Of a DNA stretch of 26,266 bases, positions 2-16,989 are shown in pieces (the stretch's first letter is position 1; the number at the start of each line of letters is the position of its first letter). The stretch covers positions 1 to 26,266 of the forward strand of contig DYKK01000002.1 of NCBI GenBank assembly GCA_020722625.1, read 5' to 3'. The notes below the pieces were generated by a model. That model made no database searches and was not told where the DNA came from. It saw nothing but the letters and a program-made list of their open reading frames with translations. The position numbers and the translations under genes are program-made. The DNA is from Anaeromyxobacter dehalogenans. Lineage in GTDB: Bacteria; Myxococcota_A; UBA9042; DTJE01.

Positions 2-838
2 ATCGGAGACCCCGAGTGCTACTACTACCATCCGGAGATGGCGTGGTTCACGCTCTACAACGACACCCTCCTGTACCTGCCGGTGGACGAGTCGCAGGGG
101 GAAACGCTCGCGAACTACCCCTACATGTTCCTGAAGTGGAATCGTTTCGACCGCCTGGTGGTGGCCCTGATGGACCCGATCACGGACGGGGCCGTCACGG
201 CGGCGGTCAATGCGCTCGCGTTCCTGAGCCAGAGCCTGCGCAGCCCCGCGACCGCGGACATCCGGATGACCCCGGCGAAGTCCCTGTCCGAGGCCGACCG
301 CCGGGAGGCGAACCTCCTGCTCGTCGGGGCCCTCGGGGCGGTCATGGGGGATTCCGCGTGGCTTCCGGTGCTCCCGAAGGAACTCGTCGAGAGGTCCGAC
401 ATCCCGGGCAGGGCCGACCTCCTGAACACCGCGGGTTTCCTCGCCCTGTCGCCGAGTCCGTTCGAGCCCGCCCGTCGCGTCCTCGCCGTGGTGGGTCGCT
501 CGGACCGCGAGATCGGGTACGCGGCCCCGTACCTGTATGCCCCGGGAAAGGTCGAGTGGGTCCGGGGCACGCTCGCCATGGTCGGCGGGGACCACGAACT
601 GCGGGTCCTGCTGCCGCCCGGTCCCGCGGACGCGGTCGCCCGCTTCGACCCGACCAAGGTTCGGTTCGAGGAGAAGGACGGACGGCTCGTCCCGGTCGTC
701 GAGGTCCCGAAGCCCGTCCAGCCTCCCGCCCGGTACAACGTGGCGTACCTGGTGTTCTTCATCCTGACGCCCGTCCTGGTGCTCCTGGTCATCCTGCGCC
801 TTCGGGCCTTGTCGCGCGAGGGCCGGGGCGGAGGATAG
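2..838 (+). CDS. BcsB-like (cellulose synthase co-polymerase-like) periplasmic protein with C-terminal membrane anchor; 5'-truncated by the window edge
   Basis: Frame is open from nt 2 (IGDPECYYYHPE precedes the ORF-track Met at 38), so the true start is probably upstream. Segment AGFLALSPSPFEPARRVLAVVGRSD...VRGTLAMV resembles the BcsB C-terminal pattern (SP-x4-R-x-V/L...G-x-V/L-A-x-I/V). It ends in one hydrophobic helix (VAYLVFFILTPVLVLLVIL) followed by basic residues, as BcsB does. Confidence 0.6.
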   Translation: MGDPECYYYHPEMAWFTLYNDTLLYLPVDESQGETLANYPYMFLKWNRFDRLVVALMDPITDGAVTAAVNALAFLSQSLRSPATADIRMTPAKSLSEADRREANLLLVGALGAVMGDSAWLPVLPKELVERSDIPGRADLLNTAGFLALSPSPFEPARRVLAVVGRSDREIGYAAPYLYAPGKVEWVRGTLAMVGGDHELRVLLPPGPADAVARFDPTKVRFEEKDGRLVPVVEVPKPVQPPARYNVAYLVFFILTPVLVLLVILRLRALSREGRGGG

Positions 839-842
839 AGGG

Positions 843-3437
843 TTGGTCGAGAGGACGGGAACAACGCGAGCCGGAGTCGGCGTCGCCGGCGCTTCGCGTT
901 CGCGTCCCGGGGTGGCATGGCCGGGGCCGGGTCGCGACCTCCGGTCGAGACTCTGGGTTCCTCTCGTTGTGGTCGCCGTGGAGGTGTTCTGCAAGGCCGG
1001 CGAGGCGTTCGCCGCGCCCCTGCCGCGCACCCGGCCGATCCCCGACCTCTCGCCGGGGGACCGGGTCCTGTGCCTGGTGGACTCCTCCGAGGGCGTGACG
1101 GTCGAGCGCAACCCCCTGGCCGCCGTGATCGCCCCCGCGATCGCGCGCCTGGGGCTCCAGGTCCGCTGCCACGACATCACGCAAGGGGGCCTGCCCTCGC
1201 CGCAGGCGCTCGCGGGCGTCCGGGCCGTGGTCACGGGCTTCCTGGACGGGTCCATGGCCGGGGCCGGCCGCTACCCGGAGTTCGTGCGGGCCGTGGTCGC
1301 CCGCGGGGTCCGTTTCGTCATCGTCGGGAACTACGGGGCGTGGCAGGAAGGGGGTCCGGACGGTCCGTTCGTGGCCCCGGAGACCGTCAACCGCGCCTTC
1401 GAGGCCCTGGGCGTGCGCTACCGTGCCCGGTGGACCTCGGACCCGTCGCTCTTCACGGTCGAGGTCGCCGACCCCGCCATCGCGCCGGCGCGGGACCTCC
1501 GGCCGGACGCCATCCGGCACTTCTACCAGTTCGATGCGGTCCGGGACGACGTCCGGGTCCTGGTGGCGGCCCGCCGGACCGACGACCCCTCGGGACCCCC
1601 CTCCGCCCCGGTCTTCACGAGCGCGACCGGGGCCATGGTCCTCCAGCGCTACCTGTCGCCGTCGGACCTCCTCGAGGACCCCGGGGCCTTCCGGTTCGAT
1701 GCCGGGGCGTTCCTCGGGCTCGCGCTCGCCTACACCCCGCGCGACCCCGGGACGCTTCTCGTGTTGCACGACCCGGACAGCGATGCCTCCCGCGAGGCGA
1801 TGGCGACGCTTCGAGCGGCCTCTTCCTACACCGGACTCCCGATGGTCGGGGTCCCCCTCGCGTCCGCGTCGCGATTGCGTCCGATGGACCTCGCCGCCCA
1901 CACGGGGGTCGTCCTGGCCCTCGACCAGGTCCGCGCCCCCGCGGGCCGATACCTCGCGGACCTGCTCGGGGCCTTCGTGCGCCTGGGAGGCCGGGTCGCC
2001 TCGATCCTGCCGGTCTCGGACCCCGACCTGGCCCGGGTCCTGGGGCGCGAGGGACCCGCGACCGGGGCCGCGAACGCGACGGGACTGGCCTTGCGGGACG
2101 GCGTGTTTCCAGGGGCGTCCGGGCTGAGCGCGGGGCCGGGGAGCGTGCGGTGGACGGCCGCCCCGGGTCGGCCGGGTCGGGGCTGCCGCGTCCTGGCGGA
2201 ATCCGAGGACCCCTCCGGGGCCGTGCCCCTGTGGTGGCGCTGCCGGGTGGGCCGGGGCGAGGTCAGCGCCCTCAATGCGTTCGAGTTCAGCGACCGTGCC
2301 TTCCTGGGCTTCGTGATCCAGGCCGCTCTGGACGCGGCCGGGACGTGGGCCATGCCGGTCCTGGCGTCGGCGGTCGAGTTCGTGGACGACTGCCCCCTGC
2401 CCATGGCCGAGCGGGTCATCCCCGGCCTCGGGCGCCCGGACGTCGAGTTTTATTCAAACGATTTCTACGGAATGATCCTCGAGGCCCGGGATCGGCTCGG
2501 GATGCACCCGACCTTCTTCGCCGTCTTCTCGTACGGCGACGAGGTCCGGGGTCCGTTCGGGCCGCCCTTTGCCGGGACCACGGCCGCGAGGGCCCTGGAC
2601 CTGGCCCGCCGGGTCGTGAGCGACGACTTCCCCGTGGGTCTGCACGGAATGAACCACCTGTCCCCGGCCCTGTCCGGGGGAGTGTCCCGGCCCTTTCCGG
2701 ACGCCGCCGCGCTCGATGAATGGTTCGCCTCGGCGCGCGACGCCTTCCGGGAGGTCTTCGGCCCCGAGAACGGACCCGTCGTGTTCGTGCCCCCCAACAA
2801 CTTCGTGGACGCGGCCGGCAAGCGCGCCCTGGGCCGGGCCTTGCCGGACCTGCGCGTCCTGTCGTCCGTGTTCGCCGGCTCCGAGGTCGAGACCGTCCAG
2901 GACTTCGCCTTGGACCCCGACCTCCCGGGCGTGGTGGACTTCCCGCGGACCTGGGCCGGGCACGTCCTGGCCGGGGAGGCGCTCGTGCAGATGGTGAACG
3001 GCCTGCTCGCCCTGTCCGTGTCGTCCCATTTCGTCCACCCCGACGACGTCCTTGACCCGGAGCGCTCCGGGGGGCGGTCCTGGGAGGCCCTGCGGCGGGG
3101 GTTCCTGGAGGGCGCGGCCGAGGTCCGGCGCCGGTTCCCCTTCCTGCGCGACCGGACCGTCGTCCAGGCCGCCGAGGACGTGCGGCGCTCCCCGGCCCGC
3201 CGCATCCGGGTGACCCGTCGGGGGGCCGGGGACCTGCGCGTGGAGCGCGCCTCCGGACTCACCGACCCGGACGTGCTCCTGGTCCGCCTGCCGCCCGGGT
3301 GCCTCCCCCGGGTCCTCGACGGAGGCGTCCTCGTCTCGTCGGACGCGGACTCGGGCCGGCACCACGTCCGCATGGAGGCCCGGGTCCTCGACATGGAGTG
3401 TGCGCAATCGCCTTCGGAGACACGGAGGGGTCCATGA
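843..3437 (+). CDS. pelA: PelA-like polysaccharide deacetylase (DUF2194/CE4-like C-terminal domain) with an N-terminal PelA-like alpha/beta domain
   Basis: 864 aa; TTG start about 7 nt after GGAGGA; hydrophobic N-terminal segment LWVPLVVVAVEVF. DUF2194-type motifs: FVDDCPLP, GLHGMNH, VFVPPNN, SHFVHPDDVLD. The stop overlaps the pelD start (ATGA). Confidence 0.75.
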   Translation: MVERTGTTRAGVGVAGASRSRPGVAWPGPGRDLRSRLWVPLVVVAVEVFCKAGEAFAAPLPRTRPIPDLSPGDRVLCLVDSSEGVTVERNPLAAVIAPAIARLGLQVRCHDITQGGLPSPQALAGVRAVVTGFLDGSMAGAGRYPEFVRAVVARGVRFVIVGNYGAWQEGGPDGPFVAPETVNRAFEALGVRYRARWTSDPSLFTVEVADPAIAPARDLRPDAIRHFYQFDAVRDDVRVLVAARRTDDPSGPPSAPVFTSATGAMVLQRYLSPSDLLEDPGAFRFDAGAFLGLALAYTPRDPGTLLVLHDPDSDASREAMATLRAASSYTGLPMVGVPLASASRLRPMDLAAHTGVVLALDQVRAPAGRYLADLLGAFVRLGGRVASILPVSDPDLARVLGREGPATGAANATGLALRDGVFPGASGLSAGPGSVRWTAAPGRPGRGCRVLAESEDPSGAVPLWWRCRVGRGEVSALNAFEFSDRAFLGFVIQAALDAAGTWAMPVLASAVEFVDDCPLPMAERVIPGLGRPDVEFYSNDFYGMILEARDRLGMHPTFFAVFSYGDEVRGPFGPPFAGTTAARALDLARRVVSDDFPVGLHGMNHLSPALSGGVSRPFPDAAALDEWFASARDAFREVFGPENGPVVFVPPNNFVDAAGKRALGRALPDLRVLSSVFAGSEVETVQDFALDPDLPGVVDFPRTWAGHVLAGEALVQMVNGLLALSVSSHFVHPDDVLDPERSGGRSWEALRRGFLEGAAEVRRRFPFLRDRTVVQAAEDVRRSPARRIRVTRRGAGDLRVERASGLTDPDVLLVRLPPGCLPRVLDGGVLVSSDADSGRHHVRMEARVLDMECAQSPSETRRGP

Positions 3438-4861
3438 CCACGCCCGCGATCACCGCCGACCGGTACACCCGCCAGGTCGAGAGCCTGATGGAGGCCCTCC
3501 TGGGCGTCCTCTTCCTGATGGTCGTCAACGTCGCGTTCTTCGAGGACGACCCCGGGTTCCTGAAGGTTCAGCCGCATCCATTCCTCTTCTTGACGATCCT
3601 CATCGCCTCCCGGTACGGGACCTTCGACGGGTTCGTGACCGGGATGCTGTGCGCCGTGATCTACGCGTCCTACCTGTTTGCCGGCCGCGACTGGTCGCTC
3701 ATCGTCCAGACGTTCGAGTGGCACCGCATGATCCCGGCGTACCTCTTTGTCATCATGGGGGTCCTCCTGGGCGAGATCCGCGAGATGGCCGGCCGCGAGG
3801 TCCGGCGGATGCGGGACGACGTCCACCGGATGACGGAACAAGTCGAGGTCATGCGCCGCGACCTCGAGATGGTGACGCGGGTGAAGGACGAACTCCAGCA
3901 GAAGATCCTGTCGGCCGAGGACCCGCTGGCCCAGTTCTACGACTCGGCGCAGAGGCTGTCCGCCCTCCGGCCCGAGGAGGCCTACCCGGCGATCATGGAC
4001 CTGGTCGAGAAGTTCACGGGCGCGGAAAAGTTCAGCCTCTACCTGGCCCGCGATCGTGACGGGGGCGTCGTGGGACCCGCGGGACCGCCGGCCTTCGAGT
4101 TGCGGTTCAGCCGGGGGTGGGCGCAGGCGGACGAGTTCGAGGCCGTGCTGACCACCGACCACCCGGCGGTGGCGAAGGCGGTGGAGAGTCGCGGTCCGGT
4201 GACCGCGCGGGAGGCGACGTCGACCGCGTCCGACATCCTCGCCTGCGCCCCGCTGGTGGACCCCGCGGAGGACCGCGTCACGGGCCTCCTCGTGATCCAT
4301 CGGATCCCCTTCGTCCGCCTGACCCGGCTGACCGTGTCGCACCTCCAGACCATCGCGGGCTGGGCCGGCAAGACCCTCGCCGAGGCGTCGAGGTTCCACG
4401 CCGCGCTCCAGGCCCGCGTGGACGACGAGGTCACCGGGTTGTTCCACTACGGGTACGTGTCCCGCCGCCTGACCGAGGAGATGCAGCGCGTCGTGAGATA
4501 CGGGGGCGAGTGCTCGCTCCTGCTGGTCAAGGTTCTCGAGGCCGAGACCCTGTCCCCGGACGACCGGAGGCTGGTCCTGCGGGAGTTCGGCGCCACGCTC
4601 CGGCGGCTCCTGCGGACCATGGACGTGGTCGGCGCGCACCGGCTCCCGGGTGTCTATCACGTCATCCTGCCCGAGACGAGCCCCGCGCGCGCCGTGGTCG
4701 TGACCGCGAGGGTCAACGAGGCCTTCCGGCAGCAGTTCGGGGGGCTCGGGTCGCGGTTCGCGCACCTGTCGCTGAAGATGGGCGTGGCGGGCATCTCGAA
4801 GGACCACCCCCGCACGGAGGCGGAGATGGTGGCCGAGGCCGAGCGGTTCTCGCTCGCGTGA
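3434..4861 (+). CDS. pelD: PelD-like c-di-GMP receptor: N-terminal TM helices, coiled coil, GAF domain, degenerate GGDEF domain
   Basis: ATG at 3434 with RBS GGAGGGG and ATGA overlap with pelA (the ORF track starts it too early, at 3299). HPFLFLTILIASRYGTFDG matches the PelD TM signature (xRYGxxxG). RxxD I-site (RTMD, nt 4613-4624) is retained and the GGDEF motif is lost. Confidence 0.85.
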   Translation: MTTPAITADRYTRQVESLMEALLGVLFLMVVNVAFFEDDPGFLKVQPHPFLFLTILIASRYGTFDGFVTGMLCAVIYASYLFAGRDWSLIVQTFEWHRMIPAYLFVIMGVLLGEIREMAGREVRRMRDDVHRMTEQVEVMRRDLEMVTRVKDELQQKILSAEDPLAQFYDSAQRLSALRPEEAYPAIMDLVEKFTGAEKFSLYLARDRDGGVVGPAGPPAFELRFSRGWAQADEFEAVLTTDHPAVAKAVESRGPVTAREATSTASDILACAPLVDPAEDRVTGLLVIHRIPFVRLTRLTVSHLQTIAGWAGKTLAEASRFHAALQARVDDEVTGLFHYGYVSRRLTEEMQRVVRYGGECSLLLVKVLEAETLSPDDRRLVLREFGATLRRLLRTMDVVGAHRLPGVYHVILPETSPARAVVVTARVNEAFRQQFGGLGSRFAHLSLKMGVAGISKDHPRTEAEMVAEAERFSLA

Positions 4862-4881
4862 GCGTGGGGGGTCCATCCGGG

Positions 4882-5913
4882 ATGGGGAATCTCCTGGCCG
4901 TGTTCGAGGCGGTCCTCGAGGTCGAGGCGCTCGTCTTCCTGCTGCACGACTTCGATGTCGGCCCGTTCTGGCGCGTCTTCCTGCCCCTGGCCGCGCACCT
5001 GGTCGCCCTGGCCTTGCTCGCGGTGGGCTTCCTGGGTCGCTGGGATTTCGCGAGGCCCCGGGACCGGGCCTGGGCCGTGACCGGGCTGTGCATGTCCCTG
5101 CCGTTGCCGATGCTCGGGTTCCTCGGGTTCGTGGGCCTGTACGCCCTGTATGCCTCGCGGCCGCGCGGGACGGGCGACCTTCTGAGGGACTTCGAGGACT
5201 ACATCGCGTACGACCCGGCCGCGGCCGCGGCCCTGCCCAGGCCCGTGGACTCGGACCGCTTCATCCTCGACGAGGTGGACGTGGCCCCCTTGCGAGACAT
5301 CCTCGCGGGGACCGACGTGGCGCTGAAGCGGGGGGCCATCCTCTCGCTCTCCTGGCTCCCCAGGCGCGAGGCGGTGAGCCTGCTCAAGACGGCGCTCGTG
5401 GACGAGAACCGCGAGATCCGCTACTACGCGGGGAACGCCCTGTCCGACATGGAACGCGAGTTCAACGACCGGATCTTCCGCCTCGTGCGCGAGGTCGAGC
5501 GCGCGCCTACCCGTGTCGAGCACCACATCAAACTGGCGGGCCTGATCCTCGACTACGCGGACATCGGGCTCCTGGACCGGGGCATGGTCCGGTACTTTGC
5601 GGACATCGGCCTCAAGGCGCTCGACAAGGCCACCCTGGTCGGGTCGTCGGACGGGAGACTCCTCGCGCTGTCGGGCCGGCTCTACCGCCTGTGCGGACAA
5701 CTGGAGCAGGCCGAACAGGCCCTGAAGCGACACCTGGACGCGAACCCGGGGGACCTGGAGGCCGCGGTGGCCCTGGCCGAGACCGCCTACGAGCGCGGCA
5801 ACGTCGCCCTGGCCCGGCAGGTCGTGGAGGAGGCCTGCGCCCGGTTCCCCGGGGAGCCGCGCCTCGCGGACCTGAGCGAGGTCCTCGGGGGAGCGCGGGA
5901 GGAGCCGGCGTGA
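4882..5913 (+). CDS. pelE: PelE-like inner-membrane protein with HEAT/TPR-like repeats
   Basis: Real start taken as MGNLLAVFE at 4882 inside track ORF 4117..5913. N-terminal TM helices (LAAHLVALALLAVG, LPLPMLGFLG). ALVDENREIRYYAGNALSDMEREFNDRI matches the PelE repeat pattern (ALxDxxxxVRxxAxxxL...NxRI). TPR-like C-terminus. Position between pelD and pelF. Confidence 0.8.
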   Translation: MGNLLAVFEAVLEVEALVFLLHDFDVGPFWRVFLPLAAHLVALALLAVGFLGRWDFARPRDRAWAVTGLCMSLPLPMLGFLGFVGLYALYASRPRGTGDLLRDFEDYIAYDPAAAAALPRPVDSDRFILDEVDVAPLRDILAGTDVALKRGAILSLSWLPRREAVSLLKTALVDENREIRYYAGNALSDMEREFNDRIFRLVREVERAPTRVEHHIKLAGLILDYADIGLLDRGMVRYFADIGLKALDKATLVGSSDGRLLALSGRLYRLCGQLEQAEQALKRHLDANPGDLEAAVALAETAYERGNVALARQVVEEACARFPGEPRLADLSEVLGGAREEPA

Positions 5914-7466
5914 AGACCGATGTCTGCCTGATCACGGAGGGTTCGTACCCGTTCGTCGTGGGCGGGGTCTCGACCTGGGTGCACGACCTCCTCACGAGCC
6001 TGAAGGACGTCTCGTTCTCCCTGGTGCACATCGGGGTCTCGCGGGAGACGGCGGAGCGTCCCCTGTACGAACTGCCGCCAAACGTCCTGGACTTCCGGCG
6101 GGTCCACCTGATGGACACGATCCAGTGGCGGGGACCGCGGGCGGGCCGGCGCCGGGAGGCCTGGTCGGACCTCGAGCGCTTCATCCGCGACCTTTCCCGC
6201 GGGGACCACTCCCTGCTGCCCGTGATGCTGCGGCGGTTCCAGCCGGGGGTCCCGGACGCCCTCACCCCGTACGACATCTTCCACGGGCGCGAGTTCTGGG
6301 ACATCCTGGTCCGCCTGTATCGCGAACACTTCGATGGTTTTTCGTTCATTGACTACTTCTGGACATTGCGATTTATCGCCCTCCCGCTGTTCCGGGTCCT
6401 GTACGCGGACATCCCCGACGCATCGCTGTATCACGCGACCTGCACGGGGTACGCGGGCCTGCTCGGGGTGCTGGCCGGCCTGCGCACGCGCTCGCCCCTG
6501 GTCCTCACCGAGCACGGGATCTACACGAACGAGCGGATGATCGAGATCACGCAGGCGCAGTGGATCTACCGGGAGAAGTCGGACTCCCCGGTCCCGACCC
6601 GGCAACTGGGCGCCTTGCAGAACCTGTGGATGCGCAAGTTCGAGGTCCTGTCGCGGATCGCGTACGACCACGCGAGCGCCATCTTCACCCTCTACGAGGG
6701 GAACCGCCAGATGCAGGTCCTCGGCGGCGCGAATCCGGACCGCACCGCCCTGATCCCGAACGGGATCGACCTGCCCCGCTTCGATGACATCTACCGGCGG
6801 CGCCGGGAGACCCCGAGGTCCGGTCCTCCGATGGTCGCGCTGGTCGGCCGGGTCACGCCGATCAAGGACGTCAAGACCTTTATCCGGGCCGCGAGGATGG
6901 TCATCGAGGAGAGGCCGGACGTCCGGTTCTATGTCCTGGGGACGACCGACGAGGACCCGGCCTACTTCGAGGAGTGCGAGCGCCTGGTCCGCGTCCTGTC
7001 GCTCCAGAAGAAGGTCCTGTTCCCCGGGTCCGTGGACATGTCGGAGTACTATCCGAGGATCGACTGCCTGGTCCTGACGAGCATCAGCGAGGCCCAGCCG
7101 TTCGTCCTGCTGGAGGCGATGCGGGCGGGGGTCCCGGTGGTGTGCACGAACGTGGGCGCCTGCGCGGAACTGGTCCACGGGTCCGGCCCGGAGGACGAGG
7201 CCATCGGGCGCGCCGGGGTCGTGACCAACATCCGGTCGCCCCGCGAGACCGCGGATGCCATCCTCGGGGTCCTGCGCGACACGGACCGGGCGCAGGCCAT
7301 GGGCGAGGCCGGTCACGAGCGGGTGGGCCGGTACTACGTGCGTTCGCGCATGATCGAGGCGTATCGCGACGTGTATCAGCGCTACTGCGGTCGGGGGACC
7401 CTGCTCCGCGACCACCCCGCGGTCTGGCCCGACGGCGAGAACACGCCCGCGCGGGTGGACGGGTAG
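5910..7466 (+). CDS. pelF: PelF GT4 family glycosyltransferase (DUF3492 N-terminal domain)
   Basis: GTG start overlapping the pelE stop (GTGA). Motifs DVCLITEGSYPFVVGGVSTW, LTEHGIYTNER, GRVTPIKDVKTFIRA and SISEAQPFVLLE (EX7E) are characteristic of PelF. Confidence 0.93.
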   Translation: MKTDVCLITEGSYPFVVGGVSTWVHDLLTSLKDVSFSLVHIGVSRETAERPLYELPPNVLDFRRVHLMDTIQWRGPRAGRRREAWSDLERFIRDLSRGDHSLLPVMLRRFQPGVPDALTPYDIFHGREFWDILVRLYREHFDGFSFIDYFWTLRFIALPLFRVLYADIPDASLYHATCTGYAGLLGVLAGLRTRSPLVLTEHGIYTNERMIEITQAQWIYREKSDSPVPTRQLGALQNLWMRKFEVLSRIAYDHASAIFTLYEGNRQMQVLGGANPDRTALIPNGIDLPRFDDIYRRRRETPRSGPPMVALVGRVTPIKDVKTFIRAARMVIEERPDVRFYVLGTTDEDPAYFEECERLVRVLSLQKKVLFPGSVDMSEYYPRIDCLVLTSISEAQPFVLLEAMRAGVPVVCTNVGACAELVHGSGPEDEAIGRAGVVTNIRSPRETADAILGVLRDTDRAQAMGEAGHERVGRYYVRSRMIEAYRDVYQRYCGRGTLLRDHPAVWPDGENTPARVDG

Positions 7467-7486
7467 GGTTTTCTTGAGGGGGAGGC

Positions 7487-8857
7487 ATGGCGGGGATCGG
7501 ATTCCGGTTGCGGGAGATGGCGGCCCGCAAGACCTTCACGGAGTGGCTCCGGCTCTACACCTACTCGGCCGTGATCTTCTCGGGGCCGTGGCTCATCTCG
7601 ATCCTCGCGCTCGCGGCGCTGTCCACCTTCGTGCTGCCCGCGATGCTGGAGGCGGATGTCCGTGTCTTCGTCGTGACCATCGTCTATGTCTACTGTTTCT
7701 CGCTCGTGACCACGGGGTTGATCCAGCTGGTCGTGACGCGCTACGTGTCCGACCAGTTCTACAGGCGCAACCCCGATGCCGTGGTGCCGACCTTCGTGGG
7801 GTCCGTGGCCGTCACGGTCCTGTTCCAGACCGTCGCCGGGTCCCTGGCCCTGTTCTTCGCGGACCTGGACCTCTTGTACAAGATCGTGGTCCTGGGCCTG
7901 TACGTGTCCATCAGCGTGGTCTGGATCGAGATGCTCTTCCTGTCCGCGGCCAAGGACTATGCCCACGTGGTGCTCGACTTCGCCGTGGGGTACCTTGCGT
8001 CCTTCATCGGCGGACAGGTCCTCGGGACGGTCTTCGGGACGGACGGGCTGGGGATCGGGTTCCTGACCGGACAGGTCCTGCTGATGGTCCTCCTGATGTA
8101 CCGCGTCTTCTCGGAGTACCGGTTCGGCCAGGGGTTCGACTTCGCCTTCCTGCGGTACATCGGCCGGTATCCGGCCCTGATGGCGACCGGCTTCTTCTAC
8201 AACACGGCCATCTGGATTGACAAGGTCCTGTTCTGGTACTCGCCTTCGGGCCTGCACGTCCACAGTTATTTCTACACGCACTTCCCGTACGACTCCGCGA
8301 TGTTCATCGCGTACGTCACCATCCTCCCCACCCTCGCGATCTTCCTGTTGCGCATCGAGACGGACTTCTACCTCCGCTACAAGAACTACTACGGAGCCAT
8401 CCTCCAGAAGGCCCCGCTCGACCGGATCCTCGAACGCAAAGGCGAGATGCGCGACGTGCTGCTCGCCGCGACCCGGACCTCGGCGATCTACCAGGGGGTC
8501 GTCACGAGCGCGATCTTCATCTTGATGCCGTTCATCGTGGCCCTGCTCGGGATCGACCCGGACCTGGCGCCGGTCTTCCGAGTCGCCGTGATCGGGGCCT
8601 TCTTCCACGCGGCCCTGGTCGTCGTGATGATCCTGCTCCTCTACTTCGACTTCCGAGGATCGGCCCTGTTCGTGTCCGCGGTGTTCCTGCTGTCGAACGC
8701 CACCTTCACGATGGTCACGACCTTCGGTTCGGAATCGTGGATGGGGTTCGGCTACCTCGGCGCCTGCGTCCTGTCCCTCGCGACCGGCCTCGCGGTCTTC
8801 GTCAACCGCTTTCGCAACCTCGAGTACCTGACCTTCATGCGACAGCCCCTGCGGTAG
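7487..8857 (+). CDS. pelG: PelG exopolysaccharide transporter (multi-pass membrane protein)
   Basis: Signature N-terminus MAGIGFRLR, plus SGPWLISI, FFYNTAIWIDKVLFW, YDSAMFIAY and ETDFY motifs; about 12 hydrophobic segments; RBS GAGGGGGAGG upstream. Confidence 0.95.
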   Translation: MAGIGFRLREMAARKTFTEWLRLYTYSAVIFSGPWLISILALAALSTFVLPAMLEADVRVFVVTIVYVYCFSLVTTGLIQLVVTRYVSDQFYRRNPDAVVPTFVGSVAVTVLFQTVAGSLALFFADLDLLYKIVVLGLYVSISVVWIEMLFLSAAKDYAHVVLDFAVGYLASFIGGQVLGTVFGTDGLGIGFLTGQVLLMVLLMYRVFSEYRFGQGFDFAFLRYIGRYPALMATGFFYNTAIWIDKVLFWYSPSGLHVHSYFYTHFPYDSAMFIAYVTILPTLAIFLLRIETDFYLRYKNYYGAILQKAPLDRILERKGEMRDVLLAATRTSAIYQGVVTSAIFILMPFIVALLGIDPDLAPVFRVAVIGAFFHAALVVVMILLLYFDFRGSALFVSAVFLLSNATFTMVTTFGSESWMGFGYLGACVLSLATGLAVFVNRFRNLEYLTFMRQPLR

Positions 8858-8921
8858 GACGGGGCGTTTCGGTCGGGGGGTGCTCGTTCTTGGTCTTCCC
8901 GAAATATCGTCGTTCTGAAGG

Positions 8922-10052
8922 TCAAAACGACATCGTTCCGGCCGCGACCGCACCCCCGGATGTCGGCGAGATCGAGAAGAGGAAGCGGGAGGACTCGGCC
9001 GGCGGCGCGGCCCGCGCGGCCCCGTCGTCCGACGTGAACAGGAAGTACGAGGCCGCGGCCGTGGCCACTCCGACCCCGAGGAGGGCGAAACCCACGATGT
9101 TCTCGTGGTGGTCGTGGAAGACGTACCGGTTCCCGGCCGCGTCCGTCCCGGGGTCCTGGCCGCGCTTCACGTAGTACCACGTGACCAGACCCACGCCCGC
9201 CGCGGTCATGGCGGCCCCGGTCCCGAGCGTGACCCAGGCCCAGGTCCGCCGCGACGGTCCCGACACGGGGGGCTTCAGCAGGCAGACGACCTCCACGGTC
9301 CGGTCGGCCGGCACCTCGAACCGGCGCATGAACGGGGCCATCCCCTCCCGCGCGCACAGCAGGTCGTGGACCCCGGCCCGGACCTCCATCACGTCGGTCC
9401 GATTGGCCTCGCCGGCCCGTCCCTTCGGGACCATCTCGCGGTCGTCCAGCCGGATCACGACGCCATCGAAGGACGAAAGGTCCGTGGCGAACACGACGCG
9501 ACCCGTCTGCTCGCGGAGCGTGACCCGGATCGTTCGCGTCTCAGGACCGGCGATGTGCCGTTCGATCGTGACCGTCTCGTAGCCGCTCTTTCTCAGTTCG
9601 AACTGATGCCGGCCCCTCGTCAGGCGGAGGGCGCAGGGGGCCAGGACCTTCTCGACCTGGTCCACGACGACCTCCACGTCCGGGACGTTCGTCTGGACCT
9701 CGATGCTCACGGGTTCCTGGAGTTCGCGCGTGATCATCCCGACCAGGTGGCCGATCCGGACCTTCAGTTTCGCGTCCGGGTTCTCGATGGACCGGAGCAC
9801 GTCCAGGGCCTGCTCCAGGTCCCCGAGGCCGTGCAGGGCCTCGGCCTTGCGCACGAGGATGTGCGGCATCTGGAACATCTTGTAGGCCCGGTCGAGCTTG
9901 TCGAGCGCGTCGGCGTACCGGGAGGCCTCGATGTCGCCCTGGGCCTCCTTGTACAGGCGGAAGGCCTCGCGCTCCTCCGGGGTCTGTGCCCCGGAACGGC
10001 CGGACCACAGGGCCCCGACCACGAGTACGAACGCCACGACGAATCGGGACAT
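8922..10052 (-). CDS. Secreted/membrane TPR + PEGA domain protein
   Basis: Likely start MSRFVVAFVLVVGALW (signal peptide) at 10052, RBS GGGAG. TPR-like helices (YADALDKLDRAYKM...), PEGA-like repeats (IEVQTNVPDVEVVVD...LRKSGYE), then C-terminal hydrophobic helices. Start lies 4 nt from the kinase stop. Confidence 0.8.
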   Translation of the reverse strand: MSRFVVAFVLVVGALWSGRSGAQTPEEREAFRLYKEAQGDIEASRYADALDKLDRAYKMFQMPHILVRKAEALHGLGDLEQALDVLRSIENPDAKLKVRIGHLVGMITRELQEPVSIEVQTNVPDVEVVVDQVEKVLAPCALRLTRGRHQFELRKSGYETVTIERHIAGPETRTIRVTLREQTGRVVFATDLSSFDGVVIRLDDREMVPKGRAGEANRTDVMEVRAGVHDLLCAREGMAPFMRRFEVPADRTVEVVCLLKPPVSGPSRRTWAWVTLGTGAAMTAAGVGLVTWYYVKRGQDPGTDAAGNRYVFHDHHENIVGFALLGVGVATAAASYFLFTSDDGAARAAPPAESSRFLFSISPTSGGAVAAGTMSF

Positions 10053-10056
10053 GGTC

Positions 10057-12048
10057 TCACTCCCATTGCAGGGCGGGCGCCGGCTTCTTCTTCGGCGCCG
10101 TGTGGCGCGCCGGGGGCTCCGGCCGCCTGGGGGGGGGCTTGCCCGCGGCCGGGCGGGTGGCCTCGGCCGTCCGGCCCCGCCCGACACCCGACCCCGTCAC
10201 GGTGGGCGCGGTCTTCCGGTCCAGCACGAGGCGGTGCAGGGTCCGGCCCGACCGGACCGCCTCGGCCGGGTCCACGGTCAGGCGGGACTCCTCGTACCCG
10301 TCCGCCACGAATCGGAGCGTGACCGGCGCGTCCCCCTCCCGGAGGGTCAGGATGAGGGGCGTGGCCCCGACCCTCCGGTCCTCCAGGAAGACCGCGGCGC
10401 CCGCCGGAGCGGTCTCGAAGGTCAGACTGACCTGGCGCGGGGGAGGAGGCTCGGGCGGCGGGGGCGGACCGGGACCTTGCGAAGGACCGCTCGGAGCGGG
10501 TTCGGGCGGGTTCGCCTGCGGACCCGCGGCGGGTCCGGAATCCGCCGTGACGCCGCTCGCGACCACCCCGCCGCCGTCGCGGCCCTGGATCAGGGTCGCG
10601 ATCCCCATGCCCGCAGCGCCCGCGGTCACGACCACCAGCGCGACCACCAGGACCTGCGTGACGCGGCGTGGGCCGGACCGGGGCCGGCTCGGGTGCGCCC
10701 GCGCGCCCGACACGACCGAGGGGGGCTCGATGCGGGTGGAATCATCCGGGCGGGAAACCGGGATCCCCCTGGTCGAGCGAGCGGCCGGGGCCTGGGCCGG
10801 ACCCGCGACCGCCACGGGCCGGCCGGGCTCCGAGTCGGACAGCGAGACCACGACCGTCTCTGCGTCCTCCTCCACCGCGGCCGGCGGCCGGGACCCGTCG
10901 CCCATGGGACCCATGGAGGCCCGCGACAGGTAGATGGTCGGCGCATCCCGGTCCACGGCCGGCCCGCTCGGCCCGGGCCGGCTGTCCCCCGACCCGACCG
11001 GCGGGACCGGGGGCGGCGAGACCGGCAGGGCCAGCGTGGCGCCCTCCGGGACCTCCTCCCGCCCCTGGAAGCCACCGTCCGGCGCCTGGTTGCGTGGTCG
11101 GAGGGCCTCGGCGCGGGTTCGCGCGGGTTCCGCCCCCAGTGGTGTCGGCGCGGGAGCGGCCACCACCGGGCGGGCCGGGACCGGCACGCCGGCCATGACC
11201 TCGTCGATCAGGCCGATCAGGGCCTCGGCCGACGCGGGACGGTGGTCGCGGTCCTTGTCGAGCAACGAGAACACGAGGGCCCGGACCGGGTCGGGAATGC
11301 CACCGGCCGGCCCGCCCAGCGGCGGAGGGGCGTCGTGGATGTGCCTCATGACCAGGGCCACGGGCGTCTCGGCCCGAAACGGTGGGTTTCCGGCGAGCAT
11401 CTCGTACAGGATCACCCCCAGCGAATACAGGTCCGACCGGCCGTCGAGGGTCCGGCCCAGGGCCTGCTCCGGCGACAGGTACAGGGGCGTCCCGCACACC
11501 AGTCCGGCCTGGGTCAGGGCCTCGGACTCGGGATGGCCTTGCAGGAACTTGGCGATCCCGAAGTCCAGGACCTTGACGAAGTCTTCCTCGCCGTAAATCT
11601 GCGTGATGAAGATGTTGTCGGGCTTGAGGTCGCGATGCACGAGGCCGTTCATGTGGGCCTCGGCCAGGGCCTTCGCGACCTGTCGCACGATGTTCAGGGC
11701 GCGGCGGACCGGCAAGACCCCCTCGCGGCGCAGGAGTTGCGTCAGGGTCTGGCCCTCCAGGAACTCCATCGCGAGATAGAGGTGTCCCTCGTCGGACCGC
11801 CCGAAGTCGAAGACCTTGATGGTGTTCGGGTGCTTGAGGCGGCTCGAGGCCCGGGCCTCCTGGTAGAAACGCTGGACCTGGCGCTCGTCCTGGGACATCT
11901 CGCGGTGCAGGACCTTGAGGGCCACGGTCTGGTTCATCGCGACGTGGACCGCCTTGTACACGGTCCCCATGCCCCCTCGGCCCACCAGGGCGGTGATCTG
12001 GTAGCGACTATCGAAAATCCGACCGATCAGGTCCGAGGTGTCCGACAT
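10057..12048 (-). CDS. Hanks-type Ser/Thr protein kinase with Pro-rich linker, one TM helix and C-terminal PEGA domain
   Basis: Motifs GRGGMGTVY, VALK, HRDLKPDN, DFGIAK, GTPLYLSPEQ, DGRSDLYSLG. TM helix VLVVALVVVTAGAAGMGIATLI. PEGA-like FETAPAGAAVFLEDRRVGATPL. Start taken at MSDTSDLIG. Confidence 0.93.
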   Translation of the reverse strand: MSDTSDLIGRIFDSRYQITALVGRGGMGTVYKAVHVAMNQTVALKVLHREMSQDERQVQRFYQEARASSRLKHPNTIKVFDFGRSDEGHLYLAMEFLEGQTLTQLLRREGVLPVRRALNIVRQVAKALAEAHMNGLVHRDLKPDNIFITQIYGEEDFVKVLDFGIAKFLQGHPESEALTQAGLVCGTPLYLSPEQALGRTLDGRSDLYSLGVILYEMLAGNPPFRAETPVALVMRHIHDAPPPLGGPAGGIPDPVRALVFSLLDKDRDHRPASAEALIGLIDEVMAGVPVPARPVVAAPAPTPLGAEPARTRAEALRPRNQAPDGGFQGREEVPEGATLALPVSPPPVPPVGSGDSRPGPSGPAVDRDAPTIYLSRASMGPMGDGSRPPAAVEEDAETVVVSLSDSEPGRPVAVAGPAQAPAARSTRGIPVSRPDDSTRIEPPSVVSGARAHPSRPRSGPRRVTQVLVVALVVVTAGAAGMGIATLIQGRDGGGVVASGVTADSGPAAGPQANPPEPAPSGPSQGPGPPPPPEPPPPRQVSLTFETAPAGAAVFLEDRRVGATPLILTLREGDAPVTLRFVADGYEESRLTVDPAEAVRSGRTLHRLVLDRKTAPTVTGSGVGRGRTAEATRPAAGKPPPRRPEPPARHTAPKKKPAPALQWE

Positions 12049-13144: not shown

Positions 13145-16100
13145 GTGGCGGGAACCGAGGCCAGGAAATCGTGGCCGCGACGGGTCATCCGGTCGCTGGT
13201 CTGGGCCGCCGTCGGGGTCCTCGTGGTGGCCGTCCTCGCGGCGGGGGGCGCGCTGTGGGTCCTCCATCACCTCGACAGCCCGGCCGTGCGCGAACGGATC
13301 GTGCGCGCGGTTCGGGAGGGCTGGGGTATCGAGGTGGACTACGACGGGGTGGACCTCGCGCTGTCGCGCGGGGTGACCCTGCGGGGGCTGCGAGTCCTGA
13401 CCCCCGATCCCTTCCGGTCGCACGCCCCGGTCCTGGCCGGCGTGGACCGGGCGGAGGTGTCGTGGGACGCCGGGTCGGCCCTGTCGGGTCCCTTCCACGT
13501 GACCCGGGTGGGCGTCTCCGGGGTCCGCCTGACGCTCGTCCAGGACGAGGCGGGACGGTCGTCGCTCCAGGCCCTGCTCGACGCCATGCCGCGACCCGAA
13601 CGCGAGAAGCCGCCCGCGCGCCTGTCGAGGGGTCTGCCGCTTGGGGACCTCGGGGTCTCGGTCGAAAGCCTGGAGGTGCGCGACGTGGTCCTCACCCGCC
13701 TCGTCCTTCGCAACGGCGCGGTCATCCGGTCCGAGACGCTCGATGGGCTCGCGGTGGACGGCGCGCTGCACGCCGCGTCGGACGGGGCGACCGCGTCCCT
13801 GACCGTGGGGTCTCTGGACGGCGCCCCCTCGCGACTGGCGGTCCGGGACGTCGGATCGGAAGGCGAATCCCGGCGCGAGCTGGCACTGCGCCATCAGACC
13901 CGGGTCCGGGTGACGGACCCCCTCCACGCCCGAATGGACCTGGAACTATCGGTCGAGAAACAGGAATTCGTACACGACCTCGCCTGGCCAGGCCCGCTGC
14001 TGGAGGCCGGCCTGGCCGCGACCTTCCACCCGGAGGAGTCACGAATCGAAGTCGAGATGGATCGTCTGATCGTGGGCGACGGGGTGGCCCGCGGGACCCT
14101 GATGGCGTCGTATCTCGAGGACGCGGATCAAGACGTGGCGGCCCGCATCGAGGAAGCGGAAGTCCTCCTGGACCTGGACCGCCTTCCCGACTTCCTGCGC
14201 GCCCTCGCCCCCGCGGTGCGGTGGAAGGGTGGGGCCGCGCGCCTCTCCGCGGCGGGGATCGAGGTGCTGCGGCAGGCCCCGTGGGCCCGGGTCGGAGGGC
14301 ACGTGGACGGAAGCGTTCGCTTCGAGGAGGTTGCCGCCGAAACGGGCGCGCGCCGTGGGACCGGCCGGGCCGTCACGGCGATCCTCAAGGCCGTCGAGGC
14401 CCGTCCAGGGTCGGTTCAGGCGGAGGTCTCGCTCGCGTTCAAGCGCCTCCAGGTCCGGGAACCGGCTCGGGTCGTGACCCTGGGCGACGGCACGATGGGG
14501 ATCGAGGTCGGGCTCCAGGACCTCCCGAAGGCGATCGCGGGCGCCTTCTCCGGGACGGTCGGGCTGAAGGCCGGGGCGCGGATGGCCTCGGTGCGAACCC
14601 CCGCCGGCCGGGTCCGGTTGGGAGGGGTCGAGGTCTCGGCATCCGCCCCCATCGCCGCGGGCCCTCCGTTCGAGGCGGACGGGGAGGTCCGGGTCTTGGG
14701 GGTCACCTGGACCCCGGCGGGCGGGGAGGCGAGGGACCTGCCCGGCGGACGCCTCGCGTGGCGGATGCAGGAGGTGACGCCCGACCGGGAGGCGCCCGCC
14801 CGCTCCACGGGGAGGTTCACCCTGCAGGCCGGGGTCGCGGACGTGGCGCTCGACGCGCGCCTCACCAAGGAGGCGGACGCCCTTTCCATGGCGGGGACGG
14901 TCTCGGCGCGGTCCCTTGCGCTCCTGCAGCCGTTCGCGGACCACCCGGCCCTGCGCGACCTGCGCGTCCCGTTCGGGCGGGTCGGGCTGACCCTGACGAC
15001 CGAGGGTCGCGCCACGGGCCTGGCCGCGGAGGGCGGTCCCCACCTGGACCAGCGCCTCGCCGCGACGGTGACGGGCCTCCAGGCGGTCGCCGCGGGCCAC
15101 CGCGTCGAGGTCCAGACGCTCAACGCCGACCTCTCCGTGACGGGTCGCGTCCGCGACTTGCGGGCGCGCGGGACCCTCGAGGCCGCGGGCGCCCGCGTGG
15201 ACGGCCGGGTCCCGTTGCGGCGCGTCGCGTGGACGGCCGAGGCCCGCCTGAAGGCATCGGCCCCGCAGGCACGCATGTCGTTGGCGGTCGCGGGCCGTCG
15301 CGGCCCGATGCTCCACGCGGACCTCGACGCCCAGGTGACGGGGACGGGGCGCGCGGTGTCCTGGTCCGGGTCCCTGTCGGCCCAGGACCTGTCCGACCTG
15401 GCCCCGCTGCTCCCGCCGGACCTGCGCTCGACCGTGGACCTCGCGTCCCTGCACGCGGAGGTCGAAACCTCGGGCCGCCTGACCGGCGTGCTCGGGCGAG
15501 GCGTGGGTCTCGTGTCGAATCCGCTGGACGCGGCCCGCGGCCGGGCGTCGTTCCGGGCGCGCCTGCGCGGACTCGCGTATCGCAGCGAGCGGACCGAGAT
15601 CGAGTCCCCGGACCTCGACGCCTCGATCGAGGTCGCCCGCACCGGGTCGCCCGCCACGCTCCGGGCGAGCCTCGCGTATTCGTCGCTTCGCGTGGACCAG
15701 CGGGTGCGCCGGTTCGAGGTCACAGGCGGTTCCCACGGCCTCGTGGTCGAGGCGGACCCGGACCCCCGGACGGGCGAGGTGAAGGTCGCGCTCGATGGGA
15801 CGGTCGCGCGGCTGGACCACGAGGCGTCCTCGACATACCCCGTGGAGCGGGCCTCCCTGAAGGTCCGGGCGCGCGTCTCACGCCTGGACGCCGTCCGCGT
15901 GGACGAGTTCGTCCTCGACAATCCGGCCGGGGGCACCCGCATCGAGGCGACCGCGGCCCTGGACGACCTCGGAGGTCGGCTCCCGGCGAGCGCGGCCGCC
16001 GCGTGGGACCTGGTGGTCGGCCGCCGTTCCCTCGCGGTCACCGGCACGCTCGACCAGCGCCTCGACCCCTTGTCGCGCGAGTCGTTCCCGGCGTCGGGGA

Positions 16101-16918
16101 CCGTGAGGGTCCCGTTCCGCATCCAGTCCGGGGACCGATCGCTGTTCCGCGTCGCGGCCTCCATCGAGGCCCGCGGCGTGCGCGCGGAGGTCCCGGGGTC
16201 CCGGGTCGCGGTGCGAGGCCTGAACGGGACGATCCCGATCGAGGAGGAGGTCTCGCTCGGTCCGGACGGCCGGCCCTCGCTGATCCTCGAGACGGACCAC
16301 AACCTCTTTTCGCGCGTCCGTTTCCTGGACCAGCATCCCTTCCTGCGGGGCGGAGGGTTCGTGGCCGCGGACCGCGTCGTCCTGGGACCTCTGGAGGTCG
16401 GGCCTGTCGCGGGCAACCTCCGCGTCCTGCGGAACCTGGTGAGCCTGGACCAGGTCGAGGCGACCTGGCGGGACGGGAAGGTGTCGGGTCAGGTGATCGT
16501 GGAGTGGCGTTCCGAGGACCCCCGGGTGTCGTTCCGGGGCAAGGTGACCGGGGTCCGGCCGTCCGGGAGCGACGAGCGGCTGGACGCGAACGCGGCGATC
16601 GACGTCAGTCTGGGGCGCCGGGAGGTCTCCGGCCGGATCCACCTCGTCCGGATCGGGCGCGGGCACCTGCTGGACCTGATGGATGCGTGGGACCCGTATC
16701 ACGAGAACGTGTCCGCGAACCGCATCCGGAAGGCCCTGAAGGTCGGGTATCCGAAGTACGCCCGGCTCCGCCTGGACGGGGGATTCCTGAGCGCGAAGGT
16801 GGAACTGGGCGGGCTGGGGTCCCTCGTGCGGATTGACGAGGTCCGTGGCATCCCGACGGGGCCGCTGCTGAACCGGGCCCTGGGGCCGACCGGGAATTCG
16901 TTGGGAACAAGACCATGA
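13145..16918 (+). CDS. Large AsmA/TamB/YdbH-like intermembrane bridge protein
   Basis: 1257 aa; GTG start; N-terminal TM anchor (LVWAAVGVLVVAVLAAGGALWVL) followed by AVRERIVRAVREGWGIEVDYDGVDL, an AsmA-like start. Long beta-strand-rich repetitive body. Directly followed by a DUF1318-like lipoprotein gene, as ydbH is followed by ynbE-ydbL. Confidence 0.7.
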   Translation: MAGTEARKSWPRRVIRSLVWAAVGVLVVAVLAAGGALWVLHHLDSPAVRERIVRAVREGWGIEVDYDGVDLALSRGVTLRGLRVLTPDPFRSHAPVLAGVDRAEVSWDAGSALSGPFHVTRVGVSGVRLTLVQDEAGRSSLQALLDAMPRPEREKPPARLSRGLPLGDLGVSVESLEVRDVVLTRLVLRNGAVIRSETLDGLAVDGALHAASDGATASLTVGSLDGAPSRLAVRDVGSEGESRRELALRHQTRVRVTDPLHARMDLELSVEKQEFVHDLAWPGPLLEAGLAATFHPEESRIEVEMDRLIVGDGVARGTLMASYLEDADQDVAARIEEAEVLLDLDRLPDFLRALAPAVRWKGGAARLSAAGIEVLRQAPWARVGGHVDGSVRFEEVAAETGARRGTGRAVTAILKAVEARPGSVQAEVSLAFKRLQVREPARVVTLGDGTMGIEVGLQDLPKAIAGAFSGTVGLKAGARMASVRTPAGRVRLGGVEVSASAPIAAGPPFEADGEVRVLGVTWTPAGGEARDLPGGRLAWRMQEVTPDREAPARSTGRFTLQAGVADVALDARLTKEADALSMAGTVSARSLALLQPFADHPALRDLRVPFGRVGLTLTTEGRATGLAAEGGPHLDQRLAATVTGLQAVAAGHRVEVQTLNADLSVTGRVRDLRARGTLEAAGARVDGRVPLRRVAWTAEARLKASAPQARMSLAVAGRRGPMLHADLDAQVTGTGRAVSWSGSLSAQDLSDLAPLLPPDLRSTVDLASLHAEVETSGRLTGVLGRGVGLVSNPLDAARGRASFRARLRGLAYRSERTEIESPDLDASIEVARTGSPATLRASLAYSSLRVDQRVRRFEVTGGSHGLVVEADPDPRTGEVKVALDGTVARLDHEASSTYPVERASLKVRARVSRLDAVRVDEFVLDNPAGGTRIEATAALDDLGGRLPASAAAAWDLVVGRRSLAVTGTLDQRLDPLSRESFPASGTVRVPFRIQSGDRSLFRVAASIEARGVRAEVPGSRVAVRGLNGTIPIEEEVSLGPDGRPSLILETDHNLFSRVRFLDQHPFLRGGGFVAADRVVLGPLEVGPVAGNLRVLRNLVSLDQVEATWRDGKVSGQVIVEWRSEDPRVSFRGKVTGVRPSGSDERLDANAAIDVSLGRREVSGRIHLVRIGRGHLLDLMDAWDPYHENVSANRIRKALKVGYPKYARLRLDGGFLSAKVELGGLGSLVRIDEVRGIPTGPLLNRALGPTGNSLGTRP

Positions 16919-16938
16919 CGCGAGCAGGCGCTCGCGTC
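16917..16938. other. Perfect intergenic hairpin at the stop codon of the AsmA-like gene
   Basis: GACGCGAGC-AGGC-GCTCGCGTC: 9-bp stem, 4-nt loop, no U-tract on either strand. Confidence 0.6.
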
Positions 16939-16989
16939 CCCAGGGGGGCGCTGACGCCGGTGCGACGCGTTCCTGAAATGGAGTAGGAC

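What the first reader, a model, noticed from the sequence alone, without database searches (positions are those of the whole stretch)
2..838. BcsB-like (cellulose co-polymerase) gene translationally linked to a Pel operon
Seen: the gene 4 nt upstream of pelA encodes a C-terminally anchored periplasmic protein with a BcsB-like SP-x4-R-x-V...G-x-L-A-x-V segment. Established: BcsB partners BcsA in cellulose synthesis, and canonical pel operons (Pseudomonas pelABCDEFG, Bacillus cereus pelDEAFG) have no BcsB. Inference: this lineage may use a BcsB-type periplasmic guide with the PelDEFG synthase, i.e. a chimeric exopolysaccharide secretion machine. The alternative is that a bcs operon lies directly upstream.
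Basis: partly seen in the sequence, partly recalled or inferred. Interest (0 to 1): 0.75.

Follow-up and report, generated by a model that had tools for sequence, protein, structure and literature searches.

The report
BcsB-type subunit heading a Pel operon
An uncultured myxobacterium starts its Pel biofilm-sugar operon with a relative of BcsB, the helper protein of cellulose synthase, although the genome has no cellulose synthase, so a part thought to belong to the cellulose machine seems to have been taken over by a different sugar-export machine.

Summary
Window 2-838 encodes the last 278 residues of a protein cut by the contig end. They comprise the tail of the second sugar-binding domain, a flavodoxin-like domain and a C-terminal membrane anchor. 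The first 415 residues lie on another contig of the same bin and match Pfam BcsB at 3e-35. A full-length orthologue folds into the E. coli BcsB structure (Foldseek E 2e-37).

The gene is the first of a tightly packed operon: bcsB-like, DUF2194 deacetylase, pelD, pelE, pelF, pelG. No bcsA lies upstream in relatives. No BcsA-family match was found in this genome, which is 92% complete.

The clade is narrow: about 34 protein clusters, all from Myxococcota or "Deltaproteobacteria" metagenome genomes. In every locus with enough flank it heads a pel operon, in one of two layouts. It evolves under purifying selection.

I read it as a membrane-anchored periplasmic subunit of the Pel machine. This would be a new variant of a known kind. 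I found no paper describing it. Physical binding is not shown.

The scan noted a BcsB-like gene in a different Pel-type cluster of another Myxococcota genome before (e1-3910863).

The parts
2..838 (+). 3' part of the bcsB-like gene: last 278 codons plus stop. It holds the end of sugar-binding domain D3, flavodoxin-like domain D4, a linker and the C-terminal membrane anchor. The 5' part (415 codons) is on contig C470 of the same genome. About 35 codons are missing between the two contigs.
   Evidence: Translation. Orthologues align over residues 1-275/278 at 52-69% identity. C470 fragment matches PF03170 at 3e-35. The 105-nt gap is inferred from the same-genus locus L027. dN/dS is 0.12-0.16 against the same-genus orthologue.
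728..817 (+). C-terminal transmembrane anchor (fragment residues 243-272), followed by a conserved basic RxR tail.
   Evidence: Hydropathy scan. F252, L259, L262, R266 and R268 are invariant across both operon layouts. The orthologue model has a helix at 687-719.
829..845 (+). Junction: GGAGGA (829-834), stop codon TAG (836-838), candidate TTG start of the next gene (843).
   Evidence: Sequence and start-codon survey. The start codon is not proven; GTG 912 is the alternative.
843..3437 (+). DUF2194 protein (PelA deacetylase-type, as in Gram-positive PelA_DA) with an N-terminal signal or anchor and an unassigned 447-residue N-terminal half.
   Evidence: PF09960 at 7e-54 over residues 448-781. 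Hydrophobic segment at residues 37-60.
3434..4861 (+). pelD: membrane region, GAF domain and a degenerate GGDEF domain that keeps an RxxD motif (RTMD). Its ATG overlaps the upstream stop (ATGA).
   Evidence: GAF match. GGDEF match in the orthologue. Start survey. Translation.
4858..5913 (+). pelE: N-terminal membrane helices plus HEAT/TPR repeats. Its GTG overlaps the pelD stop (GTGA); ATG 4882 is the alternative start.
   Evidence: TPR/HEAT matches. Start survey and hydropathy.
5910..7466 (+). pelF: DUF3492 plus GT4 glycosyltransferase. Its GTG overlaps the pelE stop.
   Evidence: PF11997 at 8.5e-78 and Glycos_transf_1 at 1.6e-25. Start survey.
7487..8857 (+). pelG: polytopic membrane exporter, last gene of the operon. 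The next gene is on the other strand.
   Evidence: PF16933 at 5e-129, full length. Downstream gene 8922-10187 (-) is a TPR/PEGA protein.

Best explanation
The gene encodes a true BcsB-fold protein. It has a signal peptide, two sugar-binding beta-sandwich domains that alternate with two flavodoxin-like domains, and one C-terminal membrane helix.

In one Myxococcota lineage this protein has become the first gene and a dedicated subunit of a Pel-type exopolysaccharide machine.

Proposed mechanism:
1. The C-terminal helix anchors the protein in the inner membrane beside the PelD/PelE/PelG membrane complex.
2. The four periplasmic domains sit over the exit of the exporter.
3. They bind the emerging GalNAc-rich chain made by PelF.
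4. They pass the chain on to the periplasmic DUF2194 deacetylase and to a TPR-plus-barrel outer-membrane exporter.

This mirrors how BcsB caps BcsA and meets the TPR arm of BcsC in cellulose secretion.

Shown: family, fold, topology features, operon membership, conservation, lack of a BcsA match.
Inferred: contact with PelDEG, sugar binding, hand-over to the deacetylase and porin.
For: Family and fold:
- PF03170 matches the N-terminal half from the same genome at 3e-35 and a full-length orthologue at 4e-44.
- The AF2 model has pLDDT 84 and pTM 0.77.
- Its best PDB matches are E. coli BcsB chains, at E 2e-37 and TM 0.65/0.73 over about 680-700 columns.

Operon membership:
- Layout 1 is bcsB-like, DUF2194, pelD-E-F-G in family f1.
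- Layout 2 is bcsB-like, TPR+barrel gene, pelD-E-F-G in other families.
- Gaps are small or are overlaps.

Co-occurrence with pelG:
- In 401 sampled Myxococcota genomes, 30 have PelG.
- Fourteen of those also have a BcsB match, and they are exactly the f1 and f10 genomes.
- The two matches lie on the same contig wherever the contigs allow.

Single origin: the two layouts form one group (SH-aLRT 99), apart from the canonical BcsB of a bcsABZC operon in the same family.

No cellulose synthase: TIGR03030 finds nothing in this genome and at most 25 bits in four f1 relatives.

Selection: dN/dS is 0.12-0.16, like pelG at 0.16.

The membrane anchor and its RxR tail are conserved between layouts.

Outer-membrane partner:
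- The layout-2 neighbour is modelled as about ten TPR repeats plus a barrel (pLDDT 88).
- It matches PelB of the PelBC structure 9h80 (TM 0.74 by target) and BcsC.
- f1 genomes carry a homologue next to a second DUF2194 gene elsewhere.
Against: - No direct evidence of binding to any Pel protein exists.
- All carriers are metagenome bins, so there is no phenotype or expression data.
- The window's own gene is split over two contigs, and about 35 codons are unseen.
- The same-genus orthologue carries a frameshift. Selection on both sides of it suggests an assembly error.
- Sixteen other PelG-carrying Myxococcota genomes in the sample have no BcsB match, so Pel machines do not need this part in general.
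- The higher identity of the membrane helix is partly a composition effect.
Confidence: 0.62

Rival explanations
1. Oligomeric periplasmic crown. The protein does not act one-to-one on the exporter. It forms a ring, like the E. coli BcsB hexamer, whose main role is to dock the TPR arm of the outer-membrane exporter and the deacetylase. It is a scaffold rather than a guide for the chain.
For: The best structural matches are the E. coli BcsB hexamer and pentamer entries 9fmt, 7l2z and 6yg8. In layout 2 the next gene is a TPR-barrel protein that resembles both BcsC and PelB. A BcsB-BcsC contact has been solved (9b8i appears in the lists).
Against: Oligomerisation was not tested here. Matching a monomer model to chains of an oligomer says nothing about assembly. 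In layout 1 the porin gene is unlinked.
Confidence: 0.2
2. It still serves a GT2 synthase encoded elsewhere, and its position next to pel reflects only shared regulation.
For: Its nearest relatives outside this clade (P0008, P0009) sit beside a GT2 synthase in ydaJKLMN-like loci. One layout-2 genome (G028) has an unlinked 125-bit GT2 match.
Against: There is no BcsA-family match in this genome, and at most 25 bits in four f1 relatives. The gene is the first cistron of the pel operon in every locus seen, with overlapping or near-touching reading frames. Its presence follows pelG exactly in families f1 and f10.
Confidence: 0.06
3. It is a decaying remnant of a lost cellulose operon with no present function.
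For: The same-genus orthologue has a frameshift. The window's copy cannot be read in one piece.
Against: dN/dS is 0.12-0.16 on both sides of that frameshift, equal to pelG. Intact 708-814-residue frames occur in more than 20 loci that have diverged to 30% identity. Signal peptide, domain motifs and anchor are all conserved.
Confidence: 0.03

Closest known systems
BcsB of the BcsA-BcsB cellulose synthase (E. coli 9fmt/7l2z/6yg8; Rhodobacter sphaeroides 4hg6)
   Same: Pfam family PF03170, a four-domain periplasmic fold, a signal peptide and a single C-terminal membrane anchor.
   Different: No BcsA match was found in these genomes. The neighbours are PelD/E/F/G, with a GT4 synthase and a separate exporter. 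Pfam scores are 90-175 bits, against 230-400 for canonical Myxococcota BcsB. It forms a separate group in the tree.
Pel systems: Pseudomonas aeruginosa pelABCDEFG and Bacillus cereus pelDEA_DAFG (PMC7112168, PMC7890745)
   Same: PelD, PelE, PelF and PelG are present in the same order. There is a DUF2194-type deacetylase as in the Gram-positive form. PelD keeps an RxxD motif.
   Different: An extra first gene of the BcsB family is present. The papers read list accessory genes (PelA hydrolase, GalE, CotH, polyphosphate polymerase, DUF4956, DUF4832) but no BcsB. The organism has two membranes, and the TPR-barrel exporter is either unlinked (layout 1) or placed right after the bcsB-like gene (layout 2).
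YdaN of the Bacillus subtilis ydaJKLMN exopolysaccharide operon and its Firmicutes relatives
   Same: It is a BcsB-family protein serving a non-cellulose polymer. The yda product binds a lectin specific for alpha-Gal/GalNAc (PMC13274460). Two relatives from ydaJKLMN-like loci (P0008, P0009) fall in the clade that branches next to the group holding the Pel-linked proteins (SH-aLRT 86).
   Different: YdaN is paired with a GT2 synthase (YdaM) and a DUF2334 protein, not with PelF/PelG. Identity is only 28-30%.

Membership tests
BcsB (Pfam PF03170) | Match to the family profile above the curated cut-off (21 bits) | tested here: met
   The same-genome N-terminal fragment scores 122 bits. Orthologues score 136-154 bits. 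The window fragment alone has no match.
BcsB (Pfam PF03170) | Four-domain periplasmic fold (two sugar-binding sandwiches alternating with two flavodoxin-like domains) with a C-terminal membrane helix | tested here: met
   AF2 model of the G016 orthologue. Foldseek against E. coli BcsB gives E 2e-37, TM 0.65/0.73. The anchor in the window is at residues 243-272.
BcsB (Pfam PF03170) | Encoded with, and working on, a BcsA-type GT2/PilZ cellulose synthase | tested here: not met
   TIGR03030 finds no match in this genome and 25 bits or less in G007, G011, G016 and G010. There is no GT2 gene in the flanks. By contrast, G002 of the same family has bcsA-bcsB-bcsZ-bcsC.
BcsB (Pfam PF03170) | Required for synthase activity and for guiding the glucan chain | not testable with these tools
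   This needs genetics or biochemistry.
Pel exopolysaccharide system | PelF (DUF3492 + GT4) and PelG present and adjacent | tested here: met
   PF11997 at 8.5e-78 and PF16933 at 5e-129.
Pel exopolysaccharide system | PelD receptor (membrane region, GAF, degenerate GGDEF with RxxD) and PelE (membrane helices + TPR) | tested here: met
   GAF and TPR/HEAT matches. GGDEF match in the orthologue. RTMD motif. Binding of c-di-GMP was not tested.
Pel exopolysaccharide system | PelA-type deacetylase | tested here: met
   DUF2194 at 7e-54 in the operon, and a second copy on contig C294. Catalytic residues were not examined here.
Pel exopolysaccharide system | PelB outer-membrane exporter (TPR + PelB barrel, PF24604) | tested here: inconclusive
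   The TPR-barrel genes do not match PF24604. The layout-2 model does match PelB of 9h80 by fold, at TM 0.74 by target. A true PF24604 PelB occurs in a BcsB-less Myxococcota Pel locus.
Pel exopolysaccharide system | PelC lipoprotein and the PelA hydrolase domain | not tested
   No profile accession or trusted query sequence was at hand.

The most novel reading that the evidence does not exclude
The BcsB module does not depend on one type of synthase. Here it would be an obligate periplasmic co-subunit of a GT4/PelG-type machine, recruited once from a YdaN-like system for a GalNAc-type polymer. It would provide the so far unknown physical bridge that carries Pel from the inner-membrane complex to the deacetylase and the outer-membrane pore.
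Probability: 0.35. Interest if true: 0.75.

Novelty: new variant of a known kind. Interest (0 to 1): 0.62.

Why it matters
BcsB is treated as the obligate partner of the cellulose synthase BcsA. How Pel leaves the PelDEFG complex and crosses the periplasm is still unclear.

A lineage in which a BcsB-type protein is built into the Pel operon suggests that this periplasmic module can be moved between synthase-dependent secretion systems. It offers a natural system for asking what the module does apart from cellulose.

It also flags an annotation trap. NCBI names these proteins [quoted passage not shown] in genomes where no cellulose synthase was found.

Tried and rejected
- **Co-folding.** PelG was co-folded with the 278-residue fragment, using my own 11-row alignments. 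The result was no answer (score 0.00, controls not run). It is no evidence either way.
- **Pfam on the fragment alone.** No match.
- **Fragment profile against the PDB.** Only BcsB chains matched, but at E 0.15.
- **Rfam.** A gathering-threshold scan of the window and four related loci found nothing, so there is no riboswitch.
- **Sequencing runs.** No RNA holder is listed. The best DNA holder is a biofilm metagenome that may be the source.
- **A 188-residue frame upstream of layout-2 genes.** It looked conserved. It overlaps the divergent poly(A) polymerase gene and is not called as a gene in independent annotations, so I dropped it.
- **Frames upstream in G007 and G016.** They are not conserved with each other, so I treated them as spurious.
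- **Literature.** Searches for BcsB together with Pel genes returned only reviews that treat the two systems separately.

Full report
**What is in the window.** The window is the first 26,266 bases of contig C128 of a 3.4-Mb, 508-contig genome bin that is 91.8% complete. It has 71% G+C. Frame 2-838 on the plus strand is open from the contig edge and ends at TAG 836-838, giving 278 residues. Residues 243-272 are hydrophobic and are followed by a basic tail.

Downstream lies a compact operon:
- a DUF2194 protein (843-3437)
- pelD (3434-4861)
- pelE (4858-5913)
- pelF (5910-7466)
- pelG (7487-8857)

The last three junctions before pelG are 4-nt ATGA or GTGA overlaps. The next gene is on the other strand.

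**Is the cut gene BcsB-like?** The fragment alone does not reach significance. It has no Pfam match. A profile of eleven such fragments finds only BcsB chains in the PDB, in the correct domain, at E 0.15. Three other lines of evidence are decisive.
- Contig C470 of the same genome holds a 415-residue frame that starts with a signal peptide, runs off the contig end and matches PF03170 at 3e-35. It is the only BcsB match in the genome.
- Against the same-genus locus, the two fragments are co-linear with a gap of 105 nt. The gene is therefore about 728 codons, split by an assembly break.
- Full-length orthologues of 708-814 residues match PF03170 at up to 4e-44. An AF2 model of one (pLDDT 84, pTM 0.77) superposes on E. 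coli BcsB over nearly its whole length (E 2e-37, TM 0.65/0.73).

The window fragment corresponds to the end of the second sugar-binding domain, the second flavodoxin-like domain, a linker and the anchor helix. It is the family-wide SPxNxxRxxLxVxG signature of the flavodoxin-like domains.

**Does it belong to a cellulose locus upstream?** No. The carriers are uncultured Myxococcota.
- In the same genus, the gene upstream is a divergently transcribed radical-SAM/SPASM gene.
- In other relatives it is HrpB, poly(A) polymerase or exonuclease VII.
- A BcsA family search finds nothing in this genome and only generic GT2 noise in four relatives.
- A genome of the same family that lacks pelG has a textbook bcsA-bcsB-bcsZ-bcsC operon. 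Its BcsB scores 319 bits and sits far away in the tree.

**Recurrence.** Two layouts exist.
- Layout 1 is bcsB-like, DUF2194, pelDEFG, in family f1, which includes this window.
- Layout 2 is bcsB-like, TPR-plus-barrel gene, pelDEFG, in other families.

Among 401 sampled Myxococcota genomes, 30 carry pelG. Fourteen of those also carry a BcsB match, and they are exactly the f1 and f10 genomes. The two genes are on one contig wherever the assembly allows. The other 16 pelG genomes have no BcsB match.

In a 5.8-billion-protein collection the clade has about 34 clusters. Scores then drop sharply from 353 to 76 bits. A search of 1.8 billion representatives with the fragment found only six clusters below 1e-10.

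The two layouts form one group (SH-aLRT 99). That group is sister to a pair of BcsB-like genes with unknown partners. The next branch out holds proteins from ydaJKLMN-like Firmicutes loci.

Against the same-genus orthologue, dN/dS is 0.12-0.16, the same as pelG.

**The rest of the machine.** The layout-2 neighbour is modelled as about ten TPR repeats plus a barrel. It matches PelB of the PelBC structure and BcsC, but not the Pfam PelB barrel profile. Family f1 genomes, this one included, carry a homologue next to a second DUF2194 gene on another contig. Layout-2 genomes carry DUF2194 genes elsewhere. Both layouts therefore have the same parts, arranged differently.

**How it most likely works.** By analogy with BcsB, the anchor helix would hold the protein against the PelD/E/G membrane complex. 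The periplasmic domains would receive the chain and pass it to the deacetylase and the TPR-barrel exporter. The anchor and its RxR tail are conserved between the layouts. The anchor segment is 40% identical between layouts, against 24% for the neighbouring domain. Composition inflates that figure. None of the contacts is shown. The one co-folding job gave no answer.

**Novelty.** The Pel papers I read list several accessory genes but never BcsB. Searches that combined BcsB with Pel genes found only reviews that treat the two systems apart. BcsB relatives outside cellulose are known (YdaN; PMC13274460), but there they partner a GT2 synthase. I did not test it.

I rate this a new variant of a known kind.

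Noticed in passing
L063 (G000 contig C294) 477-4453: The same genome has a second locus: a DUF2194 gene (211 bits, with CE4-type matches) followed by a TPR-plus-barrel gene. That gene is homologous to the one between bcsB-like and pelD in layout-2 loci. The pair is conserved in G007, G016, G010 and G011. It is probably the outer-membrane half of this Pel system.
   Followed up: partly
L027 10718-10734 (same-genus genome G001): The bcsB-like orthologue has a +1 frameshift (one extra base compared with the window). dN/dS is low on both sides, so an assembly error is more likely than decay.
   Followed up: partly
L066 1677-8967 and L067 1240-8917: The sister clade of the Pel-linked proteins is a BcsB-like gene followed by three conserved genes (about 378, 753 and 689 residues). 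These have no Pfam match and are not polytopic. The genomes have no PelG match. It may be another unstudied BcsB-linked system.
   Followed up: partly
L070 (G114) 1409-11823: A BcsB-less Myxococcota Pel locus has pelF, pelG, a GH114-type hydrolase, a true PelB barrel (PF24604) and an Agd3-type deacetylase. This shows what the phylum's other Pel systems look like.
   Followed up: partly
window 843-2180: The first 447 residues of the in-operon DUF2194 protein match no Pfam family. A separate first-stage note (e1-5330292) covers this gene.
   Followed up: no
window 21548-22864: A single frame combines a BrkB/YihY-type membrane domain (residues 51-295) with an Rrf2-type regulator domain (340-434). 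This is an unusual fusion if the frame is one gene.
   Followed up: no
window 13145-20996: Two very large plus-strand frames (1257 and 1326 residues) have only a weak DUF748 match and a PD40 repeat match.
   Followed up: no
P0056, P0065, P0004, P0068: NCBI annotation calls members of this clade 'cellulose biosynthesis cyclic di-GMP-binding regulatory protein BcsB'. That is misleading where no cellulose synthase is found.
   Followed up: yes
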